DNA of 53,055 bases from a virus (IMGVR_UViG_3300024231_000017:1-53055), one strand, 5' to 3'; counted from the stretch's first letter, positions 26,697 through 51,000 are shown. The notes: a model not told the origin generated them from the letters alone. Translations and numbers: made by a program.

Positions 26697-26969
26697 TCAT
26701 AAAAATTTGGCGATTGCCGTGATACATGCTGCAAAGATGATCCACGCTGCACGCTCTGCAACCATGCCCTTACCGGCTGTCTTGGCTATGTTGGTCTCTA
26801 CCTGCCGGATATCGCCCTCAAGCTGGTTGAGGCGCCCCTCATGCCTATCTAGTCGTTTATGACTGCTTACCAGCCGCTCATCTATTCGAGCCAGCACCGC
26901 CATGGTGTCGGTTAACTGATCCAGCTTCTGCTCGATTCGATCAAATCTCTTTTCAATATCCAATTGCAT
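26697..26969 (-). CDS. Coiled-coil protein with C-terminal TM helix (holin/antiholin-like)
   Basis: RFDRIEQKLDQL...LARIDERL; hydrophobic C-terminus. Confidence 0.55.
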   Translation of the reverse strand: MQLDIEKRFDRIEQKLDQLTDTMAVLARIDERLVSSHKRLDRHEGRLNQLEGDIRQVETNIAKTAGKGMVAERAAWIIFAACITAIAKFL

Positions 26970-27066
26970 ACCGCCGCGCCAGTGTCTGAGAGGATTCATC
27001 CTCGTTTATATGTGCTCAAATTATACCTCAATATGCAAATAAATGAATTATTTTCGTCTAAGGGTG

Positions 27067-27095
27067 TTGACAATGGATTTCCTTGAGATTACAGT
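27067..27095 (+). promoter_or_regulatory. Strong sigma70 early promoter
   Basis: TTGACA-17 nt-TACAGT with AT-rich UP-like tract at ~27030-27055. Confidence 0.85.
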
Positions 27096-27252
27096 GCGAA
27101 CCAAGTCAAGGCAATTTGCCATGACGGATACGGGGTCTCCGTGATCGACCCGCCAGCCAGCAAAGGATTTCTGGTTGCCCTCCCCCAGCGGGTTCAAGGT
27201 CTGGGGTTATCGAGAGTGAAAGCCATTGGCGAGTAGCAAGACGGTAAGAGGA

Positions 27253-27306
27253 AAGTGTCTGCATCTACCTGATGCACTGATGAGGGCAAGCAAGCCCGAA
27301 ACACTT
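27253..27306 (+). ncRNA. Hammerhead ribozyme, type III (HHR1)
   Basis: AAGTG-TC^-TGCATC-tacct-GATGCA-CTGATGA-GGGC-aagcaa-GCCC-GAAA-CACTT: full core, three perfect stems; predicted cleavage after C27259. Confidence 0.93.
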
Positions 27307-27325
27307 AAGCCTGAGGAGGCACATC

Positions 27326-27733
27326 ATGACTACATTTCACCAGCAAAACATACACCCCGTTCTGTCTTTAACGTGGGATCTGTTAGCAGAGCCAGCCATC
27401 AGCCCAAACCGCAAAGCGCGATTGCGGCAGGATGCGCGGAAGTATCAGTTTAGAGACAGACTAGCCTGTCGTGCAGAACTTAAGCAGGACATTGACTACT
27501 GCAAAACCAGTGATGGCTTTGTCTATGTCGAGAACTTCTCGAGGGACTGCGATAACTTCGAGCGCAACTGGATCAGTAAGGTACCTGCTCATATCACAGC
27601 GCTGGAGTTGCACGAGAATCGCTTGCATGACGGCGCCGAGGGTCTCACCTTCTGCAACCTGCTCGATCAGGAAGCAGTAGATTCCTTCCAGTCTATGGCT
27701 CGAGACCGCAATGCCGAGCGCTACGGATACTGA
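27326..27733 (+). CDS. Early protein, unknown function
   Basis: 135 aa; GAGGAGG RBS right after HHR1. Confidence 0.75.
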   Translation: MTTFHQQNIHPVLSLTWDLLAEPAISPNRKARLRQDARKYQFRDRLACRAELKQDIDYCKTSDGFVYVENFSRDCDNFERNWISKVPAHITALELHENRLHDGAEGLTFCNLLDQEAVDSFQSMARDRNAERYGY

Positions 27734-27782
27734 GTAAGCACATCGAAGCCATTCACCGAGTGGCTTCTATTGTATTTATTCA
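27731..27782 (+). promoter_or_regulatory. Long intergenic hairpin, RNase III site-like (copy 1)
   Basis: TGAGTAAGCACA/TGTATTTATTCA lower stem, internal loop, GAAGCCATTC-acc-GAGTGGCTTC upper stem. Confidence 0.6.
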
Positions 27783-27804
27783 ACCCAGCCTGAGGAGGCA
27801 AATC

Positions 27805-27981
27805 ATGACTATTCAAGTCCTAGTAAAAAACCAATACGGAAACCAAGTGATCTACCCAGCATGTGAGATAGGCGAGACCTTCGCCGCTATTGCCGGAACC
27901 AAGACCCTGACCGATGAGACCCGCGCCCTAATGAAGCGACTCGGCTATCAGTTCGAAGCCAAGGTGGAGGTGCAGCTATGA
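27805..27981 (+). CDS. Small early protein
   Basis: MTIQVLVKNQYGNQVIYPAC...AAIAGTKTLT; ATG 27805 after GAGGAGG. Confidence 0.75.
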   Translation: MTIQVLVKNQYGNQVIYPACEIGETFAAIAGTKTLTDETRALMKRLGYQFEAKVEVQL

Positions 27982-28091
27982 GCCGCAATGAAAAGATAGT
28001 CCTCACCATAGCTGTCTGTCTGGGTGTCCTACCCATGACCTTCGTAATGTCAATGATGATCATCTCGCTCAAAACTGGAGTGCCATTATGA
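27978..28091 (+). CDS. 37-aa membrane peptide, not in ORF track
   Basis: MSRNEKIVLTIAVCLGVLPMTFVMSMMIISLKTGVPL; GGAGG RBS; ATGA overlaps at both ends. Confidence 0.6.
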   Translation: MSRNEKIVLTIAVCLGVLPMTFVMSMMIISLKTGVPL

Positions 28092-28300
28092 GATTAGAAA
28101 TACTGCAAGAAATCCAAGAGTACAGCCAATGGCTGTTTGATGACTGGGAAGAGGGCTGCGGTATCAGTAGTTCTGACTTCCACACCCCGATTAGAAGCGT
28201 CTTGTTAGACCACGGGATTAAGTGGGATGACATAGGCGAGACGTGGCAGGAGTTCTGCCGCACAGCAGTCAGCAACGGCATAGCAGACGCAACTGAGTAA
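28088..28300 (+). CDS. Small acidic early protein
   Basis: 70 aa, GGAG RBS, coupled to upstream ORF. Confidence 0.65.
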   Translation: MRLEILQEIQEYSQWLFDDWEEGCGISSSDFHTPIRSVLLDHGIKWDDIGETWQEFCRTAVSNGIADATE

Positions 28301-28344
28301 GCACATCAAAGCCATTCACTGAGTGGCTTTTATTGTATTTATTC
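28294..28344 (+). promoter_or_regulatory. Long intergenic hairpin, RNase III site-like (copy 2)
   Basis: Near-identical to 27731-27782 with a compensatory G-C to A-T change in the upper stem. Confidence 0.6.
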
Positions 28345-28367
28345 CAACGCCTGAGGAGGCACGCATT

Positions 28368-29243
28368 ATGAAGACAGATATTAAAGAAACAATTACCGCT
28401 GAAATTATCACCATGATCGAGAGCGCACAGGCATCCGGTGCAGACTGGACAATGCCCTTCAAGTCACTTGGCGGCAAGCCTACCAATGCCAACACGGGCG
28501 TAGCCTATACCAGACTAAATGCGCTATGGCTTGGGCTGCAAGGCTACCGCACTGTGGCTACTTACAGACAGTGGGAGGATATCGGCTACCAAGTCCAGAA
28601 AGGCTCAAAGGGTGTGGCTATCAGTGCCCCAATGACCGTGAAGGACAAAAAGACCGGCGACTCCAAGATGATCGGATTTCGCACCGTCAAGGTATTTCCT
28701 GCCAGTATGGTGCTCCACGCTGAGACCGGCGAGCCTTGGGTAGAGCCTGAGACCGAAGCGGTGGATCTCACTGAGCGGCTAGAACTGGCTGACCAGTACG
28801 TTAACAATCTAGGCTTTGATATTCGCCACTCTGGCGAGGGCAGGGCTTACTACTCACCCGCTGGTGACTTCATCCACATGCCAGAACGTGCGGCATTCAG
28901 CGCTACCAAGACATCCACAGCGACTGAGAATTACTACTCCACACTGCTGCACGAATCGGCTCACTGTACCGGTCACAAATCGCGCCTAGATCGCTTAGAC
29001 CTTAAGAACAAAAAGGGCTACGCCTTCGAGGAGTTGGTGGCTGAGTTGTCTGCCGCGTTCCTATGTAATCAGCTGGATGTGTCAGGCGCTCCTCGTGATG
29101 ATCACGCTCAGTACTTAGCGTCTTGGCTTGATGCTCTAGGTGGTGACAGTGACTACATCTTTAAGGCGGCTAGCGAAGCGCAGAAAGTGGTTGACTGGAT
29201 GGATGCAATGCAAGTTGCCCTTCCCTTAGAGGAGGCGGCATAG
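28368..29243 (+). CDS. ardC: ArdC-family antirestriction protein (ssDNA-binding + zincin-like domain)
   Basis: W.MP....P.NA.TG..Y...N; ATYRQW...G.QV.KGSKG; YYSTLLHESAHCTGH.SRLDR; YAFEELVAELSAAFLC. Confidence 0.92.
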   Translation: MKTDIKETITAEIITMIESAQASGADWTMPFKSLGGKPTNANTGVAYTRLNALWLGLQGYRTVATYRQWEDIGYQVQKGSKGVAISAPMTVKDKKTGDSKMIGFRTVKVFPASMVLHAETGEPWVEPETEAVDLTERLELADQYVNNLGFDIRHSGEGRAYYSPAGDFIHMPERAAFSATKTSTATENYYSTLLHESAHCTGHKSRLDRLDLKNKKGYAFEELVAELSAAFLCNQLDVSGAPRDDHAQYLASWLDALGGDSDYIFKAASEAQKVVDWMDAMQVALPLEEAA

Positions 29244-29278
29244 GGGTGCGGGGATTTATTTCCCCCGCCCAAATTTTT
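29243..29278 (+). terminator. Terminator-like hairpin after ardC
   Basis: GGG(T)GCGGGGA/TCCCC(C)GCCC stem followed by AAATTTTT. Confidence 0.45.
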
Positions 29279-29341
29279 CTAGCTGATGAGCAGCTGAGTG
29301 GTTCTCAGTCGAAACGCCCAGCGGGGCGTCCTAGATAACCA
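29278..29341 (+). ncRNA. Hammerhead ribozyme, type I (HHR2)
   Basis: TCTAG-CTGATGA-G(ca)GCTGAG-tggtt-CTCAGT-C-GAAA-CGCCC-agcg-GGGCG-TC^-CTAGA; 3' AACCA can pair with loop II TGGTT; cleavage after C29330. Confidence 0.92.
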
Positions 29342-29358
29342 ATGCCGAGGAGGCAACC

Positions 29359-29586
29359 ATGTACTACATCCAGCAAGAGGGATCACCCTTCGCTTACCAA
29401 GCAAAAACATTAACCGAATATGCATCGCGTTTGACCGGCGGGGATACCGGAGAATATAGGGTATACAAAAGCAAGAGCGCATATCACGAGGGCTTCGACT
29501 TTACCGCCTATGATCATATAGACGGCAAGCTAAAAAAATCTAAAGCCCAGCCAGTGGCTGTATTAAATCGCTGGCTTTCTAGCTGA
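29359..29586 (+). CDS. 75-aa early protein bracketed by two hammerheads
   Basis: GAGGAGG RBS; stop codon TGA lies in the CUGA core of HHR3. Confidence 0.75.
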   Translation: MYYIQQEGSPFAYQAKTLTEYASRLTGGDTGEYRVYKSKSAYHEGFDFTAYDHIDGKLKKSKAQPVAVLNRWLSS

Positions 29587-29639
29587 TGAGCAACTGAGTG
29601 GTACTCAGTCGAAACGCCGTGAGGCGTCCTAGATAACCA
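29578..29639 (+). ncRNA. Hammerhead ribozyme, type I (HHR3)
   Basis: TCTAG-CTGATGA-G(ca)ACTGAG-tggta-CTCAGT-C-GAAA-CGCC-gtga-GGCG-TC^-CTAGA; tail ACCA pairs with loop TGGT; cleavage after C29628. Confidence 0.92.
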
Positions 29640-29660
29640 AACTGCCGAGGAGGCAATCAA

Positions 29661-29939
29661 ATGGAAATCAAGCGAAAAATAGTAGCTCGCGCCGCACAGC
29701 GCATTATTGGTCTGCTCACTTTTGATGAGCTAACCGCAATCTACAAAGCCGAACAAAATGCAACACACGCGTGTGCTCAGCTCGGAATGAGCGCCCAGAT
29801 AGCCACCCAAGATACAGCGCGAACAGTGGCGCGAGAAATTATGGAGGGGCTTTCTGATTATCAGATCGACCAGATGGGGCACGAACTAAAACTGTCGGCG
29901 CGAGACCTGACTAAATACACGGCGGAGGTGGCAGCATGA
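29661..29939 (+). CDS. Early protein, unknown function
   Basis: 92 aa, GAGGAGG RBS after HHR3. Confidence 0.72.
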   Translation: MEIKRKIVARAAQRIIGLLTFDELTAIYKAEQNATHACAQLGMSAQIATQDTARTVAREIMEGLSDYQIDQMGHELKLSARDLTKYTAEVAA

Positions 29940-30196
29940 TCACCTTTAGAATGGTAGTAAAAGAATCATTTTACACCGAGTACGCAGTAGAGGCTGAATC
30001 TGAAGTAAAAGCGCGACTCCTTGTCCGGAAGGGTCACGGGAGAGTCGTTAATGACGGCTACACTGACTGGGACATCATAGCAATAGAGCAAGACAATCCG
30101 CCTCCCCCATTTTTGCCTGTAGACCCAGACGACATCGCCGAGATTCAGGCAGCAATGCAGGAAAATGCTGACGACAGAATGACGATGCCCCACTAA
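29936..30196 (+). CDS. Early protein, unknown function
   Basis: 86 aa, GGAGG RBS, ATGA overlap. Confidence 0.68.
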   Translation: MITFRMVVKESFYTEYAVEAESEVKARLLVRKGHGRVVNDGYTDWDIIAIEQDNPPPPFLPVDPDDIAEIQAAMQENADDRMTMPH

Positions 30197-30321
30197 TCCA
30201 ACTGATGATCGCAGCTAGTTACTGCGTGAAACCTAGCGTCCACCTGACGATAAAGAGTCATGCGGGAATATCACCCAGAATCTACACGGGTGCCCCATGG
30301 CTTCTAGGTATTGGAAAACTA
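30197..30321 (+). ncRNA. Hammerhead ribozyme, type I variant with large stem III insertion (HHR4)
   Basis: TCCAA-CTGATGA-t-CGCAG-ctagtta-CTGCG-t-GAAA-CCTAG-[67 nt]-CTAGG-TA^-TTGGA; tail AACTA pairs with loop TAGTT; cleavage after A30310. Confidence 0.8.
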
Positions 30322-30342
30322 AATGCCGAGGAGGCAATTATT

Positions 30343-30516
30343 ATGGGAACTCAATACGAAGACTGCACCCCGACGTGGGAAGAAACCGCTCACCTGCTGG
30401 TTCACACCCTGCAATGCAATCCCGACAACGAAAGTGCTCGGGCAGAACTGTTACGCATGGGCAAGATCATCGACCAGCAACAGGCTTACATCAAGCAATC
30501 TAAGGAGGTGGCTTGA
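30343..30516 (+). CDS. 57-aa early protein
   Basis: MGTQYEDCTPTWEETA...ARAELLRMGKIID; ATG 30343 after GAGGAGG. Confidence 0.7.
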   Translation: MGTQYEDCTPTWEETAHLLVHTLQCNPDNESARAELLRMGKIIDQQQAYIKQSKEVA

Positions 30517-30716
30517 TGCAGGCAGAACTTGAGAGGGTTGCCAATCGATTGCAGCTATTCATCTTGAAACGCAATCGCAGGACTAGGATTCAAAGGCTTT
30601 CGGGCGTCCATATAAACACCATGGCACGCTTCCTAGCCGGTGAAGATATCCGACTGCACACCCTGATCAAGATCGAGAAGGCTTGCCTGCAACTTCAATC
30701 GGAGGATGAATTATGA
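30513..30716 (+). CDS. Cro/XRE-like HTH protein
   Basis: IQRLSGVHINTMARFLAGEDIRLHTLIKIE HTH pattern. Confidence 0.65.
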   Translation: MMQAELERVANRLQLFILKRNRRTRIQRLSGVHINTMARFLAGEDIRLHTLIKIEKACLQLQSEDEL

Positions 30717-30886
30717 GCATGTATAAATGCGGTGACTGCACATTCTGGGGTGAGTATGACGAGGTTCTGATCGTGCGTGAGATTGATCATGAGCCATACG
30801 GCGATCAGACAGTAGAGCGTGAGACCATCTACTGGCATTGCCCCTTATGTGATAGTGAAGATGTAACAGAATGGCTTGAAGCCTGA
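30713..30886 (+). CDS. 57-aa zinc-ribbon protein, not in ORF track
   Basis: MSMYKCGDC...WHCPLCDSEDV; GGAGG RBS; ATGA overlap. Confidence 0.7.
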   Translation: MSMYKCGDCTFWGEYDEVLIVREIDHEPYGDQTVERETIYWHCPLCDSEDVTEWLEA

Positions 30887-30965
30887 AAACACAATAGGTA
30901 AAAAAATAAACCATTTGTGTACTTAGATATTTCCCCCAAATCGTGCTAGGAGATAGCACCGTCTA

Positions 30966-30990
30966 GACGCTACGGATGGCGTCCTTTTTT
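30966..30990 (+). terminator. Rho-independent terminator ending the early operon
   Basis: GACGCTA-cgga-TGGCGTC followed by C and T6. Confidence 0.75.
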
Positions 30991-31077
30991 GTAAGTTTTT
31001 TCGAGGCAACCTGCGGGCAATGTGGAAAACAACCTGCGGGTAATCTGGAATGAACTAACCAAAAAGAGGAAGACCCT

Positions 31078-31389
31078 ATGTTCTTATTTGAACAGAAACT
31101 AAACCAAGCAGGCATTGCTGACACCAGAACCCAGCATATTGCCAAAGCCCTGAGCGACCTTCACTCTGCAATATCGCAGTGCGATATACCCACGCGCAGA
31201 TTGTTTGCGGATATGCACCCTTACGCCGTTCGCGCAGCAGTCGAGTACGCCAAGGTCGAAGACCTCAACACCGATCTCTGGGGCGTCACTCACAACCACG
31301 AATGGCTAGCCGATTACATGGAGTACGAGACAGAGTGCCGGATCAGACCCCTGACCGACAACGTCGTTGATATGGGAGAATACCGATGA
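31078..31389 (+). CDS. Hypothetical protein
   Basis: 103 aa, GAGG RBS. Confidence 0.65.
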   Translation: MFLFEQKLNQAGIADTRTQHIAKALSDLHSAISQCDIPTRRLFADMHPYAVRAAVEYAKVEDLNTDLWGVTHNHEWLADYMEYETECRIRPLTDNVVDMGEYR

Positions 31390-41602: not shown

Positions 41603-42052
41603 CTACATCCCCAGCAAGTAATACGAACCAGCAAACATAGCCAGCACCGCGATTGTTGCACCGATGTTCTTCGCCACATCGCCAATCTGACGCTGCTTCT
41701 TGAGCCTCGCCAACCTAGCCTTCTCCAGCTTGTGCTTGTGATCGAGTAAAGACTTGTTCTGGATCATGAGCATGTCACGCCAGACGTGCTTAGGGGTTAT
41801 CTTCTTCAGCTCTTTCTCGTGCTGCCTGATCGCGTCCTTAGCCCATGCCAGCTCCAGCGCTTCTTCCTGAGTGAGCACATGGTCTCCAGCCTTGGTGGCT
41901 TCTTCGATGCTCTCAACCGCCGTCTTGCTCTCGGTCAGACTGGTAAACAATCCGGTCAATCCCTGTAGGTGATCACCCGACTCCTTAACGGTTTTGATGC
42001 CCTCGTTTAAGGCTTTGAGCACCCCAACAACTGCACTGATCTCAGCTATCAT
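41603..42052 (-). CDS. Coiled-coil protein with C-terminal TM segment
   Basis: 149 aa, coupled to giant protein gene. Confidence 0.6.
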   Translation of the reverse strand: MIAEISAVVGVLKALNEGIKTVKESGDHLQGLTGLFTSLTESKTAVESIEEATKAGDHVLTQEEALELAWAKDAIRQHEKELKKITPKHVWRDMLMIQNKSLLDHKHKLEKARLARLKKQRQIGDVAKNIGATIAVLAMFAGSYYLLGM

Positions 42053-45000
42053 TTCATCTCTCTCTCGGCTTTCCTGTAAGCCTTGTTGTATATGTCGAAT
42101 ATCTTGTTCTCATTCTCCAGCAGCTTGTCCAATAGTTCTCTGCGACGCGCCTCAGGAATATCCTGACTCTCTACCAACTTACGGGTCTTGGATATGCTTC
42201 TTAACTCTCGGTTGGACGCCTTGTAGAGACTGTTGCGCCCACCTTCAATCACGGGGATAAAGGATTGGTACTGGTTTCTGAGTCGGTCCAGCTCGGCTTG
42301 ATCTCCTGCCTCGATAGCATCTTTCAGCTTCGCCTCGATCTTTCTGGTCTCATCCCAGTTGGCATAGAACTCAAACCTGTCTTCGTACTCCGAGGGGCTC
42401 TCAAAGAAGGTGCCAACAATCGGTAAGTCTTGTTTCCTGAAATCCTCGTCCGCCATCATTCTTGCCGCAACGTCTGAAGACTGGCTCACAAAGCGCCCTA
42501 CACCCCCCAAGAAGTATTCATACACATACTCCATCTTGTCTGGGTTCATAGAGATGTAACCGTCCTTGTACTTGTCTCCGCCCGTGGCATCGTTGAGGAA
42601 CTCGGCTGCTGCTGTGAAGGCTTTATCAGTAGACCGTCGAGAGTTGTATGCGTTTGATCGCTCAACAATGAACGGGTTTTGCTCAATGTATATATCGCTA
42701 CCAAAGAAGTTCTTATTAGCCAGCATGTCCAAATGAACTTCGAGCAGGTCAGGATAGAATCCTCGCGCTTTCTCTTCCCAGTTATCGCCGCTAGAGGGAG
42801 CAACCGGAACGAAATTCAGTAACGCGTTCTCCCACAGATACACTGCCGACTCTTCTGGGGTGTTGATGTCGAACGCCATTTCAGCACTCAAGCGACCAAT
42901 ATTGGTGAAGAAGTTGTACCCGTAGGGGGCGGGTAGAGCGAACCCTTCTTCGCTGCTGTAATTGATCAGTAGTGCCCGGTTCTTCGCATGCTCAGGAAGA
43001 TCGGCATAGACCTTCTCGTCATCGTCATCATCTTCTGAGTTCAGAATGTTAATCACGGCAAGTGTAGCCCCTAGACCTATAAGTCCCACTGCCGTTTTCT
43101 GTGCGGTTGTGACCTTGCCTTCGCCGCCACCCAAAGCCTGAGCTATGTTGACATTGCCCTGTACTGCGGCGTTAAAGAACAGGTATCCGGCATTGACTAC
43201 GGCTGTGTTCTCACCCTTACGGTTGAAGTTAACGGTAAGGTCTTTCGCTAATGTCGCTGCGGTCTGCCTATCAGTTCCCGCTTTACGTGCCTCGATGTAA
43301 GCAGACAGTCGTATAGCGTTTTCCATGGTGGTGTTGAAGTCTTCCACCCAGTTACCCACAGCTCGCAAAGCCTCACGGGTCATGCCTTTCTTTAGCTTGT
43401 TCTTCATTATGCGTAACTGCTCATCCTGATCGCGGACCAGCATCATGCCTGTTGACGCACCGTCCTCCATAAACTCTGCCGCATACTGATCTAGAGTGCC
43501 TTCTCTTACAGGCTTACCGCGAAGCACGCGATACATAGACCTCATTGAGGGCAGATAGCTCTGAGCCATTTTCCCGATAAGGTTCTCGCCTTGTACTCTG
43601 CTGCCTTTCTTGTCCTTCTCTGCAAGCGAATACATAAGACCCGTCTGAACATCACGCAGCGGGTTAACCAGCCCCCATGAAGGGTTGTAGTTGATCAACA
43701 TGTTTCTGCGGAATGTTTGGAATCGAGTCGCCAGAGTTAGCAGCTTGCTTACGTCGTCGTTAGCCCTGCTCAGCATGGGCACGCTCATGTTCTGTAGCGC
43801 GTGATTTAGGCTGTCACTCTTAAACTCGATAAAGAATGTCTGCCCACCCTTCTTGACCTCTACATACTTGGGGTCACCGTTGGGTCTAACATCTCTAGAC
43901 ATCTGGTCGAGGTCTTGCTGCGTCAGTTCGTCGCTTGGCTTCGGTGGTCTGAACTTATTGTTGTATATGGTATAGGAGTCGCTGTTACCTAACTCACTCA
44001 AAAGCTCTAATAGGGTTTGGGCGGTTTCATTTTTTCTCGCCCGAATAATTTTTCTCTGAACATCTTCGATAGCGGTAAACAGAGGATTCACAGGCAATGT
44101 CTTTCTACCCTTAGCCCTCATGCTCTCGCTGCCTACGATAGAGAAGCCTCTAGACTTATCGCCAGACTTGTAGGCGTCGCCATTTTCTTCAGCAGCAAAA
44201 CCTTTAAGGGGCACATAGAACTCGTAGGTATCTTCCCAGTCTGAGCGAGAGTCTTCGTCAAGCAAGCCTGCCTCTACCATGCGGTCTCGCTGATACTGAA
44301 GCATCTCGTAGACCTTGTCGGCAATACGGTCCATATCAGCCTTGGTGCCTTCCCGTTCCGCCAAAGCTAGAACGCTCTCCGCCTCGGCATACGTCATCCC
44401 TGAGCCTGTATCTTGGAACGCCAGTGGCAGTGTTTGGTATTCGTTAAGTTTTGTGCGCTGAGTCTCGAGGGCGACACTGTGATCGACACCGACATCTGCC
44501 AATAGGCGCTCTATCTCCCGCTCAGCCCTAGCAATGTTTCTCTCGCGCTGAGCCTTAACCTTTTCAGCAATAACGTCATTGCGCTCCGCCGCGTGCTTCG
44601 CAATAAGGTAGGTTCCTACAGCATCTGGATCGACCTGTAGCTCGGCGATTAAATCACCAAGCGGGTCCACATAGTTTTCGTGGAATGCGTCTAGATCGTT
44701 CTGCACTTTACCGTGCGACAGGTTTTCTTGATCTCTAGGTGACAAGCCAGCAGGAAGCCGCCCCATCTCTAGGAAGTCAGCCGCTTGATTCTCAAAATCT
44801 TCTAAGGGTGCGTAACGGTCCACCAAGGAACGGTATACCTTCTTACCCTTCAGCCTTCTGGCAAGATCAGACTGTGCGTCTATCTCATCATTGTAGCTAA
44901 AGGCATTGGTTGATGGGCTTCCGTCGTCTAGAGTTCCTGTCTCTTTGTTGATCTGCTTCTTCTTGATGTACGAATAATTATCAACATCGTCGTAGACAAC

Positions 45001-48000
45001 GTCTTTGGCTATTACTAGATTTCCTACTTGAATCACTTCACTGGCAGATAAGACTGGGGTCTGGGTAGCCAGATCATAGAAGAAAGTGTGACGCTCTGGG
45101 TTCATGGAAACCTGAGTCCAAGCCGGATCATCCATAGCGGCTATAAAGTCTAGCCTGTTCTGCTCATGATCTGCCGCAACGTAATTACCCTCGATAGTCG
45201 CGATGGTATTTTTATCTGCACCCATGGCTATATTAGTTGCACCTTTTTCTGGAGATGCAAATGAAGCGTTCGCTAGACGCAGAGTTGGGTAGTAACCAAG
45301 ACGAGTACCAGACGCGCCCTTGAAGGGAGCGCCCTCTTTACGAGGTCTCGCCGCATGAGCAGTAACAACATCAGCCCGCTCATCTTTTGATAATGTTGGG
45401 TGGCTGTGGGCGGGGATATCTAGCCTTGAGCCAGTTCTCTGCCCGTCTTCAAGCACATCCGCTAACCAGTAAGTTTCTTTACTAGGTGTGTTCGGCTTTT
45501 CTCTGCTCGTCTTTTTCAGCGCATTGATGTAATGAGAGTCCGGCTTTAACGGAGCAATCATATCGGGATGCATGGGCTTAACATAACGACCTTCTTTTCT
45601 GAAGATGTCATTAAGCTCGGCGGCAGTGATCTTGCGATCAATTCGATCCTGCACCGCTTCCTTTAACTTGGGGGATATTCTTTCTTGCTCGGGTCTACGG
45701 GTCTCACGAATAGACCGCATGCCCTCTTCGTAGGTGTCTACGTAGTAGCCTGTGTCTTTGGTGTAGGGACCAAAGTACTTCGGGTCAACAACCATGAATA
45801 CAACGTCAGGCTCGCCCTTGTTGTAAGGCATGAATGTTCTTTTGTCCCAGTCCGCAGGAGCCTGAGAATCATCCCACTTGAGTCGAGAAACAACCTTGAA
45901 CCCGACATGCTGATAGATAATCGGAAGTTGCGTATCAAAGGCGTCAGAGTACAGCCCGCCCTCCTCAACAGCCAATGATGCCAAAGAGTAGGTTACGTTC
46001 TTGTGCCCGCCGTTGTTATAAAGAGACACTATTGTGTCGCCGTTTTCGATAGCTATTCCAGCTGCGCCATCTTCGGTCATGAACATCTGCATCTTTTGAT
46101 ATTCAGATTCAGGATACACATAGACCGCTGCACCATAGAGGTTGGCGTCTTTTCCTTCTTGAATCTTGCTTGCGAACAGCTTGGCGTTGGTTTTGTTTTT
46201 GGCTAGCTCAATGACTGTGCCGTTAAAGGAATCAACGGCAGCGAGCGCGGCTTTGGCTCCAGTCTCAAGCTCCCTCTTTTTGCCTGATACTTTTTTACCC
46301 GCTACGAGTACTTGAGAATATTTGCTAGCTCCTCGTCGGAAGCGTCTGGGTATATTTCCTTCATTTCCTCCACTCCCGCTATCAGATAGTCGGGGACTAC
46401 GAAGCTCTTTGTAGACTCTGTTTCGCTCATCTCGCCGTCCGGCGCCATTGGGGGGGCTGATTTCAACAGCTCTTTCAGAAGCATATTCTCTTTGAGCTGC
46501 CTCTCTTTCTGAGTACGCATCGACGAGTTCGTCGAGCTTTTGTCTGCTAACGCCTTCTGCTTCATACCAAGGTGTCCCTTTATCAAATTCACTGACTTTA
46601 AAGTCTTTGGGCACTATACCATTCTTGGGTTTAGGTATCTCGTCCAAAAACTTTCTAAATGATTCTTTACTAAACTTGTACATCGTGCCGCTAGATTTGG
46701 GGTACACGTAGTAAGGTGTGCCCTTATCGTCTCTTGCATAAATAGCTGCGGAGCGATACATGTCGCCCTTTCCTTCAGGGGCTCCAATGAATGCGTAGGG
46801 GTTGTCCTTACCAAGGATGTCCTTCTCAAGACCCTGCATGGTTGGGTGAGCAACGATCTGCCCCGAATCCCTTACCCAGCTTTCCCAGTGATAGCGACCA
46901 ATAGACGCATCTTCTGGTCTGCCCAGCTTCGTATACAGCTGCTTAAGTTTTGTGTTGAGGGAGTTCTCTATAGCCTCGTATCGGGCTGAGCCTCGAAGAC
47001 CACTAAACTCATCAGCCAAGTCGGCATAAATATTCTTGCCGTAACGGTCAGAATCCCACATTGAGTTCAGCTGAATACGGTCAAGAATTACCACGTCGTC
47101 ACGACCAATCATCAACTGGGCAAATGAGAAGACCTTGTTGTCTATTCCTGATCCCTGAACAATCAATTGGAATTGACGCCGAACCTCCTGAGTGGACATG
47201 TCGCTGTCAGCCATGATGTCGTGGACGCGCTGTAACTTTGACTGACCGCCGCTGTGCGGCTCTGCCAGCTTCTGCATCAGCTTGCCAAAGTCATTGGCGT
47301 TGGAGATTGCACCACGACCAAAAGAGCCATCAGGTATTAGCTTTCCTACCTGCTTAACCCATGCCTTAACGTCGGCATCGGACACATCGCCATCAAGCGC
47401 TTTCTGTGCCAGATCAGATACGGCAGTGCTTCCTGTCATCAGGTCAACAAAACCAGCTTCCTGACCTGAGGCTGTCTGCCGTCGAGACATCAAGCCCCAA
47501 AGCAGCAACTTGGCAGTGGCGTTAGGAGTCGCATCGCCTGACGCATATAAAGCGCCCATTCTTTCAGCGGTAGCCAAGCCGCGATTGGCAGCCTCTAGCT
47601 GCTCCGGTGTCAGCTTGGCATGAGTCTCTACCCATGAGTCCATGTCATTGTAGAGACGGATCAATCCATATGGCGGGGCTAGGGTTTCGGACTTTCCTGT
47701 TAGGTCTCTCTCAAACGCCAGCCATGCCTCTGGGCTCGATAGGGCGTCAGGGTGCTTAGCCACCACATCGACAGCACGCTGAATCTGCACCTCTGGGTCT
47801 TTCGTGGTGGGGGTAATCTTAACCACAGGCAGGGTCTTTTTCTCTCCAACCGAACCCTTAGACTTTTGCAGTAAGTACTCTGCACCCTTCTTAATAAAGC
47901 TAGGGTCATCAAGCAGGTCTTGATAGAGCTCAAACCTGTCTTCGTAGAGCCAGTCATAAGACATGAACTTGCCATCCTGTAGGATGACGATGTCTTCTTC

Positions 48001-51000
48001 TTCTTTGTTCTCGTCTAAAAGTCTCTGCTTGAGGTTCTCAAACTGATTGTCTTCGAGGGCTTTAAATCTGTGTCGCAACTGCTTTTCAGTCACCGACCCC
48101 TTTTCGTCTATATAGCTCCATGCTTTGAACTCGATATCACCCCCTACTTGCGGGTCTAGAGGGAGGTTGTAAGAATTTTCTCCCGCATCCATCAATTTTT
48201 GGCGGTGGGCTATCAGCTCATCAATGGTTTCCTGCTTGGTCTCGCCCAGCAGCCCATCAAGCGCGTCAATCTTCCCGTCGTCCGAGGTGAAGTAAACCTC
48301 ATCGCCAGCTTCCTTAGCGTCATCATCGAAGTACAGGGTGTAGCGATCACCGTCTGGGAAGGTGACAATGTAGTTGCCAGTTTCTTCGTAGTTAGTGGCT
48401 TTCTTAAAGGTAGGTTTTTTATCGGTAGCCTTGAGGACTACCGGTGTGCGTTCTGGGTCTGCCGCCTCTATTGAAGTGGCAGGTGCGGGCTCTACTTCAG
48501 GCTCTTGTACTTCTGGTCGTTCACGTTGTCCAGCTTCTTCTTGGACCTGTCCCTCCACTGAGGTATCGGCTCTCCCATCTCCAAGGCTTGCTTCGCCATC
48601 TGATCCAGTTGGTTCAGGCTGTACGACCTCGACGCTTCCGGGCTCTGGCGGTGCCCGAACTTCTCCTGATATGCCTTCAGGTTGGGTGGTGTCGGGATTC
48701 TCTTGACTTGGACTCGGTTCATTTGCGGTCTCCTGCACTACGGCAGTTTGTAAGTTGCTGTCTCTAATGTCCTTGATGTAATTATACGCTTGCGGAGCCA
48801 GCTCTTGTAGTTGTTTAGGGTTTGAGTGAAACAGTGCGCCAAGCTGAGCGAACACTTCTTCCCTGTAGTTTGCGTTCAAGCCTGCGTTATCTTGCTCAAC
48901 ATCTAAGATGTCATCGGCAAGGTTGTTAAAGGGGTAGTCAAACCTCTCACCAACAGCTGTACCGTCCACCCAGTTGTCGTAGATTTCCTGCATGATGTCA
49001 CCCATAACAACCGTAGGTGCATCAGCAGCCTCATCTATCTCGATGCCGAATCGACTATCTTTGTCACTCAAGCCCATTGCAAAATCTGCGGCGTGATAGA
49101 CCTCGTGAGTCATGGTCCATGCCAGTTCGCTTAACTGCTCCGAATCAGTGAGTGAGCCACTGAGCAAGTCTTCATTGACAGATATACCCCTAGCGTTACG
49201 ACCCGTCAGAGCCGGAGCATCAACCTCAGACTCTTTGTGTACATACACCCCAGTGACTGAATCCATAAATGACGTTGGTACACCATTAGCCGACAGATCA
49301 GCCATCACGCCCGCTACGCTATCTGTTACTTGAGCAGCGTCATCGCCATAAACCTCATCTATCGTCGGCAGGCTCTTGCCCTTAGGCTTATCTGTGGTGG
49401 CAATCTTTAATGATTCATTGCGATCAAAGATTCTGTCTACGTCGTCCTGATCTATAGCCTCAACAATCACATCGGTATTGTTTGGGTCCATTGCCTCAGG
49501 AGTCGCAGCCTTCATAGACAGCTGCATAAGCTGCTCTTGGACTGGCTGATCGACTGGAGATAGCTCACCATCCCATCGGTGTGCTGGACCTGCGTCTCGT
49601 GTACCCTCGGATACAGCTACACCCCCAAATGCTGGGGCTGGCTTGAAGTCATCTACTATGTCTGACTGCGGGGGCTGAGGTGAAGGGGGTAATGTGTTTT
49701 CCCCGAATCCGGTATTTTGCGTATCCGCAGACACGGCAGGCTCTGGAAGATCGCCTTCGGGAAGATCGATAGGCTCTTCGGCGGCATTGAAGTCTAACAG
49801 TCTGGCTTGGTTTAGCTGCTCTTCTGTGTAAGGGCGATTGGTCTCAGGGTCTAGTGCGCCTTCAGCGTTCCATGTTGTGGCTAACTCGCCAGTGATTGGA
49901 TCAATAGGGCGCTCACTTGGGACCATATCGCCAAGGCTTGTGCGACCATTAGCTGCGTTGTCTCTAGCAACCTCGTACATTTGTCTTATTCGACCAGCAA
50001 ACTCAGGATCATTTACAGATCGAGTCCGAACCTCTTTCGCTTCGTCTCCAAGGTCAACGTCGGAATTGTAGCCTCCGGTTGCCGCCTTAGCTCCGGCGCC
50101 GACAACACCCGTAGCGCCGCCAAACAAGAATCCTGCTGCCGCTGACTCAACAAGCGCATTTCTTTTCTGCTGATTGTTGATGTAGTCGAAGTAATCTCTG
50201 GTCTCATTTTCGCTGTAGTTATTGTTAACGAAAGATATAACCTCTTCCTCAACAATGAGCTGCAATGCTTCAGTCCCGCCCTCAACGCCCATCTGAGTGG
50301 TAACGTCCTTAACAAACTCCCCGACCCAAGCAGGCTTGTCGTTTATTGCTCCCGATATAAACTCGCCAGCCTCATCTACCTTGCCTTTAGGGAGGAACTT
50401 GCTTAAAGCACTAAAGGCAGGAATAGCGTTAAGCGACCCTATCGCCAAGCCAGATAGAACTGCTGCCTTTGGAGCCTCTACCCCAGTCTCATCTAACGTC
50501 CTAGCAAACGTGCTTGACGCACCCTGCTGTGTCCCATACGCCAAGGCACCAGCTGTCGCTCCCCTAGTGCTGATCTTTTTGACTTTATCTTTCGCAAACC
50601 GATCTGCCATATTGCGGGCAATCTTTTCCGCAGCTTTATCCTCTATACCCTCTTTAATTAGTCTCTCTGTTGCCTGCTTGGACAGAGTGTCCGCCATCTC
50701 GGTGACGCCTTTCTTTACTGCGGTTTTAGCAAGCAATCCGCCAGCTCCCGCACTAACAGTCATCATGGCTAGGTCAGGCGCGACAGAACCCAGCGTATAG
50801 GCAGCCCATGCCCCAAAGTCAGTGGCACTATCTATGTCCTGAAACGTACTGTCCGGCTGGTATTGTTGGGCTTCGGCAGTTTTATCTTGGTAATACTGCA
50901 TGCCCTCAGAAACCATTTCTTCATCGTCAAGCGCAGAGCCTGCCAGAGCCTTAAGACCTCCGCCGAGAGCTTTAAAGTTAGCAAGTCCGCCCTTAAATCC

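What the first reader, a model, noticed from the sequence alone, without database searches (positions are those of the whole stretch)
27067..30990. Early operon segmented by four hammerhead ribozymes and two hairpins, each in front of a GAGGAGGCA RBS
Seen: one sigma70 promoter (27067-27095) and a terminator (30966-30990) enclose about 11 small genes including ardC. All six genes that start after a non-coding gap are preceded by a structured element followed by (CCT/GCC)GAGGAGGCA: HHR1 (27253), hairpin (27731), hairpin (28294), HHR2 (29278), HHR3 (29578), HHR4 (30197). The other genes are coupled by start/stop overlaps. Known: CUGANGA/GAAA/NUH with three stems defines hammerheads; cleavage leaves 5'-OH and 2',3'-cyclic phosphate ends; T7 cuts its early polycistron with host RNase III; 5'-OH RNAs are poor substrates for 5'-monophosphate-stimulated RNase E. 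Inference: the phage dices its host-takeover transcript into separate units with defined leaders (28-32 nt after HHR2-4, 66 nt after HHR1), using ribozymes and RNase III-type sites as interchangeable punctuation. Hammerheads in phage-like DNA are known, but this systematic cassette-like use looks poorly described.
Basis: partly seen in the sequence, partly recalled or inferred. Interest (0 to 1): 0.93.

Follow-up and report, generated by a model that had tools for sequence, protein, structure and literature searches.

The report
Hammerhead ribozymes punctuating a phage operon
A marine phage places four self-cutting hammerhead RNAs and two conserved hairpins in the gaps of one eleven-gene operon, each just ahead of a ribosome-binding site folded into a tiny hairpin; this is a clean example of an arrangement known in phages since 2011.

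Summary
The operon (promoter 27067-27095, terminator 30966-30990, 11 genes including ardC) has six non-coding gaps. All six copies of GAGGAGGCA in the window lie in them.

**Hammerheads.** Infernal scores HHR1 as type III (40 bits, E 6.8e-9). HHR2 and HHR3 score as type I (about 21 bits, E about 5e-4). All are below Rfam's gathering scores. A family model built here finds HHR2, HHR3 and HHR4 (93, 80, 49 bits). Stems and a loop II/3'-tail pseudoknot covary. HHR4 is atypical.

**Hairpins.** Both are conserved, covarying modules. Whether they are RNase III sites is untested.

**RNA evidence (weak).** In 4 of 4 metatranscriptome runs no listed contig bridges any of the six elements, and contigs cross all five overlapping gene junctions.

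**New details.**
- The Shine-Dalgarno sits in a covarying 4-bp mini-hairpin.
- Ribozyme and hairpin modules replace each other before the same genes in relatives.
- Homology blocks end at these modules.

**Novelty.** Clustered phage hammerheads flanking genes, including ardA, were published in 2011 (PMC3088659). This scan has noted many such arrays on other DNA. Verdict: new member of a known kind.

The parts
27067..27095 (+). sigma-70-type promoter-like site TTGACA-17-TACAGT
   Evidence: 10 of 12 matches. The same hexamers at the same spacing stand before the homologous leader in L004 and L005; they also occur in L057, L083, L103 and L107, whose context I did not examine.
27253..27306 (+). 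HHR1, type III hammerhead; predicted cut after 27259
   Evidence: RF00008 scores 40 bits, E 6.8e-9, below the cut-off of 48.5. The minimum-energy fold is the hammerhead fold. The core reads CUGAUGA / GAAA / GUC.
27309..27320 (+). Shine-Dalgarno mini-hairpin GCCU-GAGG-AGGC before gene 1 (27326-27733)
27732..27782 (+). hairpin module 1 (inner 10-bp stem 27745-27767); the stop codon of gene 1 lies in its 5' strand
   Evidence: Terminator-like. Folds at -21.5 kcal/mol, z -6.0, as 7+3+10 bp. Conserved family in relatives.
27788..27799 (+). Shine-Dalgarno mini-hairpin before genes 2-4 (27805-28300, start/stop overlaps)
28295..28345 (+). hairpin module 2 (inner stem 28308-28330)
   Evidence: Folds at -18.4 kcal/mol, z -6.6. 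The first inner pair is G-C in copy 1 and A-U in copy 2.
28349..28360 (+). Shine-Dalgarno mini-hairpin before ardC
28368..29243 (+). ardC (ArdC N-terminal domain plus zincin peptidase domain)
29244..29270 (+). G+C-rich hairpin after ardC, followed by AAAUUUUU
   Evidence: Folds at -19.5 kcal/mol. Conserved after ardC in relatives. Bridged by RNA contigs in 4 of 4 runs.
29278..29341 (+). HHR2, type I hammerhead with loop II (UGGUU) / 3'-tail (AACCA, 29337-29341) pseudoknot; cut after 29330
   Evidence: RF00163 scores 20.7 bits, E 5.5e-4. R1 scores 93.4 bits, but this copy was used to build R1. Covariation.
29343..29355 (+). Shine-Dalgarno mini-hairpin UGCC-GAGGA-GGCA before gene 6 (29359-29586)
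   Evidence: Relatives show the compensatory form GACC...GGUC.
29578..29639 (+). HHR3, type I hammerhead; the stop codon of gene 6 is the UGA inside CUGAUGA; cut after 29628
   Evidence: RF00163 scores 20.9 bits, E 4.5e-4. R1 scores 80.1 bits, but this copy was used to build R1. The fold contains stems I-III.
29643..29655 (+). Shine-Dalgarno mini-hairpin before genes 7-8 (29661-30196)
30197..30321 (+). HHR4, atypical type I hammerhead: U-U at 10.1-11.1, 67-nt branched insert in stem III, GUA triplet, pseudoknot UAGUU/AACUA; predicted cut after 30310
   Evidence: R1 scores 49.3 bits, E 3.5e-10; this copy was not used to build R1. No Rfam match. The fold is the hammerhead fold. Compensatory changes against the L004-type copies.
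30324..30336 (+). Shine-Dalgarno mini-hairpin before genes 9-11 (30344-30886)
30966..30990 (+). intrinsic-terminator-like hairpin plus T run at the end of the operon
   Evidence: RNA contigs end at 30927-30966 in the 4 runs.

Best explanation
**Setting.** Host RNA polymerase starts at one sigma-70-type promoter and makes a transcript of about 3.9 kb covering eleven small genes, including the anti-restriction gene ardC.

**Ribozymes.** Four hammerhead ribozymes lie in the gaps.
- HHR1 is type III. After the cut it stays on the 5' end of the first mRNA.
- HHR2, HHR3 and HHR4 are type I, held together by a loop II/3'-tail pseudoknot. After the cut they stay on the 3' end of the upstream piece.
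- They cut themselves during or soon after transcription.
- Each downstream piece then starts with a 5'-OH leader of 28-33 nt (66 nt after HHR1).
- In each leader the Shine-Dalgarno is held in a 4-bp mini-hairpin.

**Hairpin modules.** Two conserved hairpin modules fill the same slot in the other two gaps. They most likely act as sites for a host endonuclease or as leaky terminators and 3' protectors.

**Outcome.** The operon ends up as six RNA units.

**Shown here**
- The motifs, their covariation and their family.
- Their positions.
- Their swapping between relatives.

**Weak hint:** RNA discontinuity at all six sites.

**Inferred**
- Cleavage itself.
- Its effect on RNA stability or translation.
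- The enzyme acting at the hairpins.
For: **Infernal scores**
- HHR1: 40 bits, E 6.8e-9.
- HHR2 and HHR3: E about 5e-4 within a 53-kb genome.

**Family model R1**, built from 8 type I copies
- It finds 26 matches at E<=1.3e-5 in 276 kb.
- All 26 lie on the + strand of the window and of the nine loci whose ArdC is at least 71% identical.
- None of the 26 lies in the 24 more distant loci.
- HHR4 scores 49.3 bits.

**Covariation**
- 8 sequences: 97.6% of cells are paired. 13 of 21 pairs change on both sides. 0 of 500 shuffles reach this. Slid controls give 24-42%.
- The pseudoknot covaries as UGGUU/AACCA, UAGUU/AACUA and UGAUU/AAUCA.
- 108 distinct sequences from 77 further viral loci: 99.0% paired, 14 of 16 pairs covary, slid controls 20-45%.

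**Metatranscriptome contigs** (4 of 4 runs)
- No listed contig bridges any of the six elements. Run X22 lists all 8 of its laid records.
- In the deepest run the contigs begin 14, 8, 10 and 16 nt after the four predicted cuts (27274, 29339, 29639, 30327).
- Contigs cross all five overlapping gene junctions.
- Contigs also cross the -19.5 kcal/mol G+C hairpin after ardC.
- DNA runs hold 98-100% of the sampled words.
- Sequencing-adapter letters abut 27277 (X22) and 28358 (X20), which points to discrete ends there.

**Precedent.** Perreault 2011 showed cleavage for three such prophage arrays in vitro, and in E. coli for the array around ardA.
Against: **Scores and membership**
- No copy reaches Rfam's gathering score. 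cmscan listed none at gathering. At E<=10 it listed none of the four elements, only one match I read as spurious.
- HHR4 lacks the 10.1-11.1 pair. Perreault 2011 used that mispair to reject candidates. Only 3 of 108 family members lack it.
- HHR1 has only near-identical homologues (L004, L005), so it has no covariation support.
- The minimum-energy fold of HHR2 alone is not the hammerhead fold.

**Copies in relatives.** Of the 22 copies listed:
- 4 have broken cores;
- 5 carry the A6a insertion, which Perreault 2011 found to cleave slowly.
- So cutting at any one junction is dispensable.

**Limits of the RNA evidence**
- It rests on assembled contigs from four runs of one year and habitat, possibly one campaign.
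- The tool rates such stops as a weak hint at best.
- 5 of 37 laid records were not listed.
- Two stops carry loose ends that run into unrelated sequence (27254 in X19, 29309 in X20).
- Contig ends lie 8-69 nt from the predicted cuts.

**No assay.** Nothing here measures cleavage.
Confidence: 0.75

Rival explanations
1. The modules (a ribozyme or a hairpin, plus the Shine-Dalgarno mini-hairpin) are mainly portable joints. They are short shared sequences at which small genes are exchanged by recombination. They also give every incoming gene the same leader whatever lies upstream. Cleavage serves this insulation and does not serve to tune RNA stability. This reading does not exclude the best explanation.
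For: - Genes 1, 4, 6 and 7 have no homologue in 7 related loci, although the modules are conserved there.
- Gene 2 is preceded by a hairpin module in the window and L007, by a type III hammerhead in L004 and L005, and by a type I hammerhead in L008.
- ardC is preceded by a hairpin module (window, L009), by a type I hammerhead (L006, L007, L008) or by another terminator-type hairpin (L004, L005).
- Homology blocks between the window and L004 or L005 end at 27332, 27786, 29358 and 30334. Each of these lies in or within a few bases of a Shine-Dalgarno mini-hairpin.
- The hairpin module starts with stop codons in two frames, and genes 1 and 4 use different ones.
- Analogous cassettes (PeSLs) are reported for T4-type phages (PMC2839356 and PMC4122927; I saw only the search listing and the start of each abstract).
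Against: - Breakpoints were read from blastn blocks against two close relatives only.
- No test against random placement was made.
- Recombination at these repeats has not been observed.
- Strong covariation in the ribozymes shows selection on the RNA fold itself, not only on a DNA repeat.
Confidence: 0.35
2. The two hairpin modules are leaky intrinsic terminators, or 3'-end protectors next to an A/U-rich RNase E site. They are not RNase III sites.
For: - The scan calls both terminator-like: 10-pair stem, then TATTGTATTT.
- Relatives carry U-richer tails. A third subtype is a classic 9-bp stem followed by U6.
- The roughly 20-bp extended duplex exists only in subtype 1.
- G-U pairs in the stems place the structure in the + strand RNA.
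Against: - No promoter-like site was found on the + strand between 27095 and 31519. The downstream genes are nevertheless present in the RNA contigs. The hairpins therefore cannot be strong terminators.
- In the window the U-rich tail pairs with the 5' flank.
- Nothing here distinguishes RNase III, RNase E and termination.
Confidence: 0.4
3. HHR2 and HHR3 release a 298-nt RNA (29331-29628) carrying gene 6, and this RNA is ligated into a circle.
For: - The twin type I ribozymes have identical stem I sequences and lie 300 nt apart.
- All of gene 6, with its stop codon, lies inside the released piece.
- An earlier first-reader note raised the idea.
Against: - No back-joined contig was reported in the 4 RNA runs (table 5: no joints).
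- Perreault 2011 looked for circular or spliced products from such arrays and found none.
Confidence: 0.05
4. The hammerheads are decaying passengers of duplicated intergenic repeats and have no present function.
For: - 4 of 22 copies in close relatives have broken cores.
- 5 of 22 carry the slow A6a insertion.
Against: - 99% pairing with compensatory changes across 108 distinct copies.
- The pseudoknot covaries.
- All four window copies keep the full core.
Confidence: 0.08

Closest known systems
Clustered hammerhead ribozymes flanking genes in prophages (Perreault et al. 2011, PMC3088659; passages read)
   Same: - Several cis-acting hammerheads in one orientation lie between single genes or short gene blocks of a phage polycistronic transcript.
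- An anti-restriction gene is among the flanked genes (ardA there, ardC here).
- A stem I/II pseudoknot serves as the tertiary contact.
- The proposed role is processing into single-gene mRNAs.
   Different: - Here one type III and three type I ribozymes are mixed with two hairpin modules in equivalent slots.
- Each is followed by a Shine-Dalgarno held in a covarying mini-hairpin.
- One copy has a 67-nt insert in stem III and lacks the 10.1-11.1 pair.
RNase III processing of the T7 early polycistronic transcript
   Same: - An early phage transcript is cut between cistrons at structured elements.
- Hairpins are left at the 3' ends.
   Different: - The cut there is made by a host protein enzyme on duplexes of about 20 bp.
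- Here four of the six sites are self-cleaving RNAs.
- Whether the other two are RNase III sites is untested.
RiboJ-type synthetic ribozyme insulators (recalled from memory; only listed papers that use them)
   Same: A hammerhead is followed by a small hairpin and then the ribosome-binding site, so the leader of the downstream gene does not depend on what lies upstream.
   Different: - RiboJ is an engineered part, and its ribozyme derives from a plant satellite RNA (recalled).
- Here the layout is natural, and the small hairpin contains the Shine-Dalgarno itself.
PeSL promoter/stem-loop cassettes of T4-type phages (PMC2839356, PMC4122927; only the listing and the start of each abstract were seen)
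   Same: Repeated regulatory cassettes lie at the borders of small variable early genes and are linked to modular gene shuffling.
   Different: PeSLs are promoter-terminator composites without ribozymes.

Membership tests
Hammerhead ribozyme (Rfam clan CL00010) | Conserved core: C3 U4 G5 A6 N7 G8 A9, G12 A13 A14, the A15.1-U16.1 pair, and H17 (not G) | tested here: met
   All four window copies keep it: CUGAUGA, GAAA, and GUC (HHR1-3) or GUA (HHR4).
Hammerhead ribozyme (Rfam clan CL00010) | Three helices around the core, supported by covariation | tested here: met
   Type I copies: 13 of 21 pairs covary and 14 of 16. HHR4 shows compensatory changes against the L004-type copies. HHR1 has only near-identical homologues, so it has no covariation.
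Hammerhead ribozyme (Rfam clan CL00010) | Standard pairs next to the core (10.1-11.1, 1.1-2.1, 15.1-16.1) | tested here: inconclusive
   Met in HHR1, HHR2 and HHR3. HHR4 has U-U at 10.1-11.1, as does L005:5272. In the wider family this pair is G-C in 103, G-U in 2 and other in 3 of 108.
Hammerhead ribozyme (Rfam clan CL00010) | [quoted passage not shown] | tested here: met
   The loop II/3'-tail pseudoknot is 90% paired, with 2 covarying pairs, in 8 type I copies. It was not examined for HHR1.
Hammerhead ribozyme (Rfam clan CL00010) | Score at or above Rfam's gathering threshold | tested here: not met
   HHR1: 40 against 48.5. HHR2 and HHR3: 20.7 and 20.9 against 34. HHR4: no match.
Hammerhead ribozyme (Rfam clan CL00010) | Site-specific self-cleavage that leaves 5'-OH and 2',3'-cyclic phosphate ends | not testable with these tools
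   Only a weak hint: no listed RNA-library contig bridges any of the four sites in 4 of 4 runs.
RNase III processing site | A roughly two-turn (about 20 bp) duplex, possibly with an internal loop (definition recalled from memory) | tested here: inconclusive
   The window copies fold as 7+3+10 bp. Subtypes 2 and 3 of the same module in relatives do not.
RNase III processing site | Staggered double-strand cut that depends on RNase III | not testable with these tools
   No listed RNA contig bridges either hairpin, but the ends are not mapped.
Intrinsic terminator | G+C-rich hairpin followed directly by a U run | tested here: inconclusive
   The scan flags both hairpins, but such sites are no more frequent than in shuffles (7 found, 6.8 expected). 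The tail is interrupted (UAUUGUAUUU), and downstream genes are present in the RNA contigs.

The most novel reading that the evidence does not exclude
This phage group uses a natural kit of interchangeable insulator joints. Each joint is a self-cleaving ribozyme or a processing hairpin, followed by a Shine-Dalgarno locked in a covarying mini-hairpin. Each joint would cut the message free of its upstream context and present a standard leader. It would also be the short shared sequence at which small early genes are swapped between phages. That would make it a natural counterpart of engineered ribozyme insulators and of T4-type regulatory cassettes. It would also explain why unrelated self-cleaving RNAs share the same phage gene neighbourhoods.
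Probability: 0.35. Interest if true: 0.6.

Novelty: new member of a known kind. Interest (0 to 1): 0.33.

Why it matters
The biological role of bacterial and phage hammerheads is still called unresolved in a 2019 review (PMC6765202, passages read). This locus offers a compact test bed.
- It holds four ribozymes of two topologies and two non-ribozyme modules in equivalent slots of one operon.
- Public environmental RNA libraries contain this operon's sequence.
- Relatives carry the alternative module in front of the same gene.

Mapping the RNA ends in those raw reads could show whether cleavage happens in nature. It could also show whether ribozyme and hairpin modules do the same job. The layout itself is not new, and four copies is a modest number. 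Relatives found here carry up to 9 in 4.2 kb.

Tried and rejected
- **Rfam cmscan.** The whole window at gathering score gave 0 matches. At E<=10 on 26900-31100 it gave 4 matches, none at the four hammerheads as read here. One was a 17.1-bit Hammerhead_II match at 29307-29362 that reads CCGAGGA as the core, which I take as spurious. That call did not list HHR1, although Infernal gives it 40 bits. I put this down to the speed filters but did not test that.
- **My own descriptor scan.** It found HHR1, HHR2 and HHR3, and HHR4 only when a mispair at the base of stem II was allowed. It also gives 1.22 hits per shuffled window, so I do not use it as statistics.
- **Phage database.** blastn of 27000-31000 against 50,697 phage records found no match.
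- **Gene 1 as a probe.** It found no relatives in viral contigs.
- **Host.** ArdC in genome contigs found only 4 distant relatives (35-38% identity, Rhodobacterales records). None of them has an R1 match. The host is not identified.
- **Known families for the odd parts.** Rfam at E<=10 on hairpin module 1 gave only miRNA-like hairpin noise with E>1. On HHR4 with its insert it gave nothing.
- **Hairpins as DNA hairpin promoters for a virion RNA polymerase.** The 3045-aa protein matches only PHROGs of unknown function. No RNA polymerase appeared among the 30 window ORFs scanned against Pfam or PHROGs; most ORFs of the window were not scanned. G-U pairs favour an RNA-level structure. I dropped the idea without excluding it.
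- **Hairpin module as a new ribozyme class.** I have no evidence for it beyond its position.
- **RNA depth.** Depth differences between contigs, such as the low depth of the 27102-27259 leader or ardC against genes 2-4, were not used. The tool states that contig depth cannot rank genes. Uncovered stretches by themselves prove nothing.
- **Unresolved elements in relatives.** The leaders of the first gene in L006, L007 and L008 carry CUGAYGAG followed by a long hairpin. I could not resolve them as hammerheads.
- **Papers.** Supplementary files of papers were not opened. Figures S1-S3 of Perreault 2011 may show how similar the ardA array is. No listed title describes a Shine-Dalgarno mini-hairpin coupled to hammerheads, but I read only listings apart from PMC3088659 and PMC6765202.

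Full report
**What the window is.** It is a whole 53,055-bp viral record.
- It encodes terminase, portal, tail fibres, a primase/helicase, a Sak-type annealing protein, a RecE-like exonuclease and a tyrosine integrase.
- It is therefore most likely a temperate tailed phage.
- Sequencing runs that hold it are labelled seawater metagenomes.
- The region in question is a + strand block that diverges from the packaging and structural genes.

**The observation.**
- The promoter-like site (27067-27095, TTGACA-17-TACAGT) and the terminator-like site (30966-30983 plus a T run) are found by the consensus scans. Those scans are not enriched over shuffles.
- The same promoter hexamers at the same spacing stand about 185 nt before the homologous leader and type III hammerhead in the closest relatives, L004 and L005. 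They also occur in four further loci that I did not examine.
- Eleven ORFs lie between the two sites. One is ArdC.
- GAGGAGGCA occurs six times in the window. All six lie before the six genes that follow a gap. Expected 0.57; 0 of 100 shuffles reach six.
- The other five genes start at ATGA or TGATG overlaps.

**Are the hammerheads real?**
- Rfam's cmscan found nothing at gathering score. At E<=10 it found none of the four elements.
- Direct Infernal scoring of the genome gave 40 bits for Hammerhead_3 at 27252-27307 (E 6.8e-9, cut-off 48.5).
- It gave 20.7 and 20.9 bits for Hammerhead_1 at 29277-29336 and 29577-29634 (E about 5e-4, cut-off 34).
- HHR4 matches no Rfam model.
- My own loose descriptor recovers the sites but also hits shuffled sequence 1.22 times per window. 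It carries no statistical weight.

**Evidence from relatives.**
- ArdC recovered 33 viral loci. The nine with at least 71% identity carry type I hammerheads in the same kind of slot.
- Eight copies align with full cores. Of 21 proposed pairs, 13 change on both sides while 97.6% of cells stay paired. No shuffle out of 500 reaches this, and slid controls give 24-42%.
- Loop II pairs with the tail 3' of stem I in three covarying versions: UGGUU/AACCA, UAGUU/AACUA and UGAUU/AAUCA. This is the pseudoknot contact that Perreault et al. described and tested.
- A covariance model of these eight copies (R1) finds 26 matches at E<=1.3e-5 in 276 kb. All are on the + strand of the window and the nine close loci. 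None of the 26 is in the 24 distant ones. One further weak match (E 0.4) on the window's - strand I take as noise.
- HHR4 was not used to build the model and scores 49.3 bits.

**The wider family.**
- A degenerate pattern taken from the family hit 86 stretches of viral contigs.
- R1 finds 157 matches in 77 of those loci, with up to 9 in 4.2 kb of L062.
- Where I tabulated strands (the eight loci with most matches), every match in a locus lies on one strand.
- On 108 distinct copies, 99.0% of cells pair and 14 of 16 pairs covary.
- Caveats: that alignment is fitted to the model. The sample was chosen with a canonical core pattern. Some loci are pieces or near-copies of the same contig.

**HHR4.**
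- It has the full core and a GUA triplet. It has U-U at 10.1-11.1 and a 67-nt branched insert in stem III.
- Copies of the same element in L004, L057, L088, L098 and L107 have G-C at 10.1-11.1.
- They differ from the window by compensatory changes in stem II (4 pairs), stem III (1 pair) and the insert helix (2 pairs, plus a U-G to C-G change).
- These amount to only two lineages.
- The mispair is rare in the family: 3 of 108. Perreault et al. used it to reject candidates.
- HHR4 is a family member by descent, but its activity is open.

**Decay in relatives.** Of the 22 copies listed:
- 11 are canonical;
- 2 have the U-U mispair;
- 5 carry an extra base after A6, which Perreault et al. report as slow;
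- 4 are broken (C3U plus G8A twice, U4C once, stem II deleted once).

**The hairpins.**
- Both window copies are flagged as terminator-like.
- Both fold as 7+3+10-bp interrupted duplexes of -21.5 and -18.4 kcal/mol, with z about -6.
- They belong to a module found 21 times in the window and relatives.
- The module has invariant AGUA (the stop codons of the upstream gene), a CAC, and a hairpin beginning AAGCC whose stem sequence varies while pairing is kept. It ends in a U-rich or UAGUGUUAAC tail.
- Only the first of three subtypes forms the long duplex. Another has two tandem hairpins. The third is a classic stem plus U6.
- G-U pairs put the structure in the + strand RNA.
- RNase III, RNase E next to a protective hairpin, and leaky termination all remain possible.

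**The ribosome-site mini-hairpin.**
- In 38 sites (37 distinct) of the form CCUGAGGAGG, the four pairs around a GAGG loop are always formed.
- The outermost of these four pairs is G-C in 22, U-A in 7, A-U in 4, C-G in 3 and G-U in 1, and is never unpaired.
- The next pair is C-G in 35 and U-A in 2. In those two the Shine-Dalgarno itself changes.
- I left out the six sites of the GCCGAGGAGG class before this count (three of them behind HHR2-4). They pair in another register and show their own compensatory forms (UGCC/GGCA, GACC/GGUC).
- I also left out four sites before overlap-coupled genes (AAGGAGGUG, no hairpin) and exact duplicates.

**RNA in nature.**
- Six metatranscriptome runs hold 76-84% of the sampled words of the operon. 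Eighteen DNA runs hold 98-100%.
- I laid four RNA runs as assembled contigs.
- In all four, the operon appears as six contigs whose ends flank the six elements. In run X20 these are 27274-27746, 27788-28311, 28358-29309, 29339-29611, 29639-30276 and 30327-30966.
- No listed contig bridges any element. For X22 all 8 laid records are listed. For the other runs 5 of 29 records are not.
- All five overlapping gene junctions are bridged. So is the -19.5 kcal/mol G+C hairpin after ardC, so structure alone does not explain the gaps.
- Adapter letters abut 27277 (X22) and 28358 (X20).
- Two stops carry unrelated loose ends (27254 in X19, 29309 in X20).
- The tool rates such concordant stops as a weak hint. 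The four runs share year and habitat and may be one campaign. Contigs cannot place an end to the base.

**Modules and mosaicism.**
- Genes 1, 4, 6 and 7 have no homologue in seven related loci.
- Gene 2 and ardC are each preceded by different modules in different phages.
- Homology blocks against L004 and L005 end at 27332, 27786, 29358 and 30334. Each lies in or within a few bases of a mini-hairpin.
- This fits the reading that the modules also act as recombination joints. It rests on two relatives and has no permutation test.

**Comparison with what is known.**
- Perreault et al. 2011 (passages read) state that multiple hammerheads often flank single genes or short blocks in prophages.
- They propose that long phage transcripts may be processed into single-gene mRNAs. 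They show in vitro cleavage for three tandem arrangements, and cleavage in E. coli for the triple array around ardA.
- A 2019 review repeats the processing idea and calls the function unresolved.
- This scan's notes hold 475 findings in at least 435 genomes with the same key words. They include follow-ups describing arrays of ten to thirty-three hammerheads (not checked by me).

**Verdict.** The finding is a well-formed new member of a known kind. The added details are the mini-hairpin, the module swapping and the metatranscriptome hint. I know of no description of these, but I did not search for them exhaustively.

Noticed in passing
window 30237-30303; L004:6103-6248, L057:2641-2786, L088:10871-11016, L098:12024-12169, L107:4064-4209: The 67-nt insert in stem III of HHR4 is a conserved branched structure with compensatory changes between the window and the L004-type copies. 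Other family members carry a different insert of about 30 nt (L005:5272, L012:3759) or of about 100 nt (L006:5252) at the same place. No Rfam match. It could be a regulatory domain.
   Followed up: partly
window 29244-29280 and after ardC in L004-L009: A G+C-rich hairpin followed by AAAUUUUU directly follows the ardC stop codon and precedes the hammerhead. It is conserved in relatives. RNA contigs read through it in 4 of 4 runs.
   Followed up: partly
L006:3290-3349, L007:1260-1321, L008:2870-2929: The leader of the first gene in these relatives holds CUGAYGAG followed by a long hairpin closed by UUGRUUU/AAAYCAA. I could not resolve it as a complete hammerhead.
   Followed up: no
L062:6682-10880; L097, L101: Related viral contigs carry 7-9 type I hammerheads of this family on one strand within 4-5 kb. 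That is larger than the triple arrays tested in 2011.
   Followed up: partly
window 27254 (run X19) and 29309 (run X20): RNA contigs continue from these points into about 30 letters unrelated to the window (table 7). They may be chimeras, another strain or a joined RNA. Unexplained.
   Followed up: no
window 42049-51186 (-): A 3045-aa protein whose C-terminal third matches three PHROG families of giant proteins of unknown function.
   Followed up: no
window 27102-27259: The leader of about 155 nt that HHR1 would release has a homologue in L007 (80% identity over 117 nt, 27124-27240) and in L004 and L005. It may be a conserved non-coding RNA.
   Followed up: no
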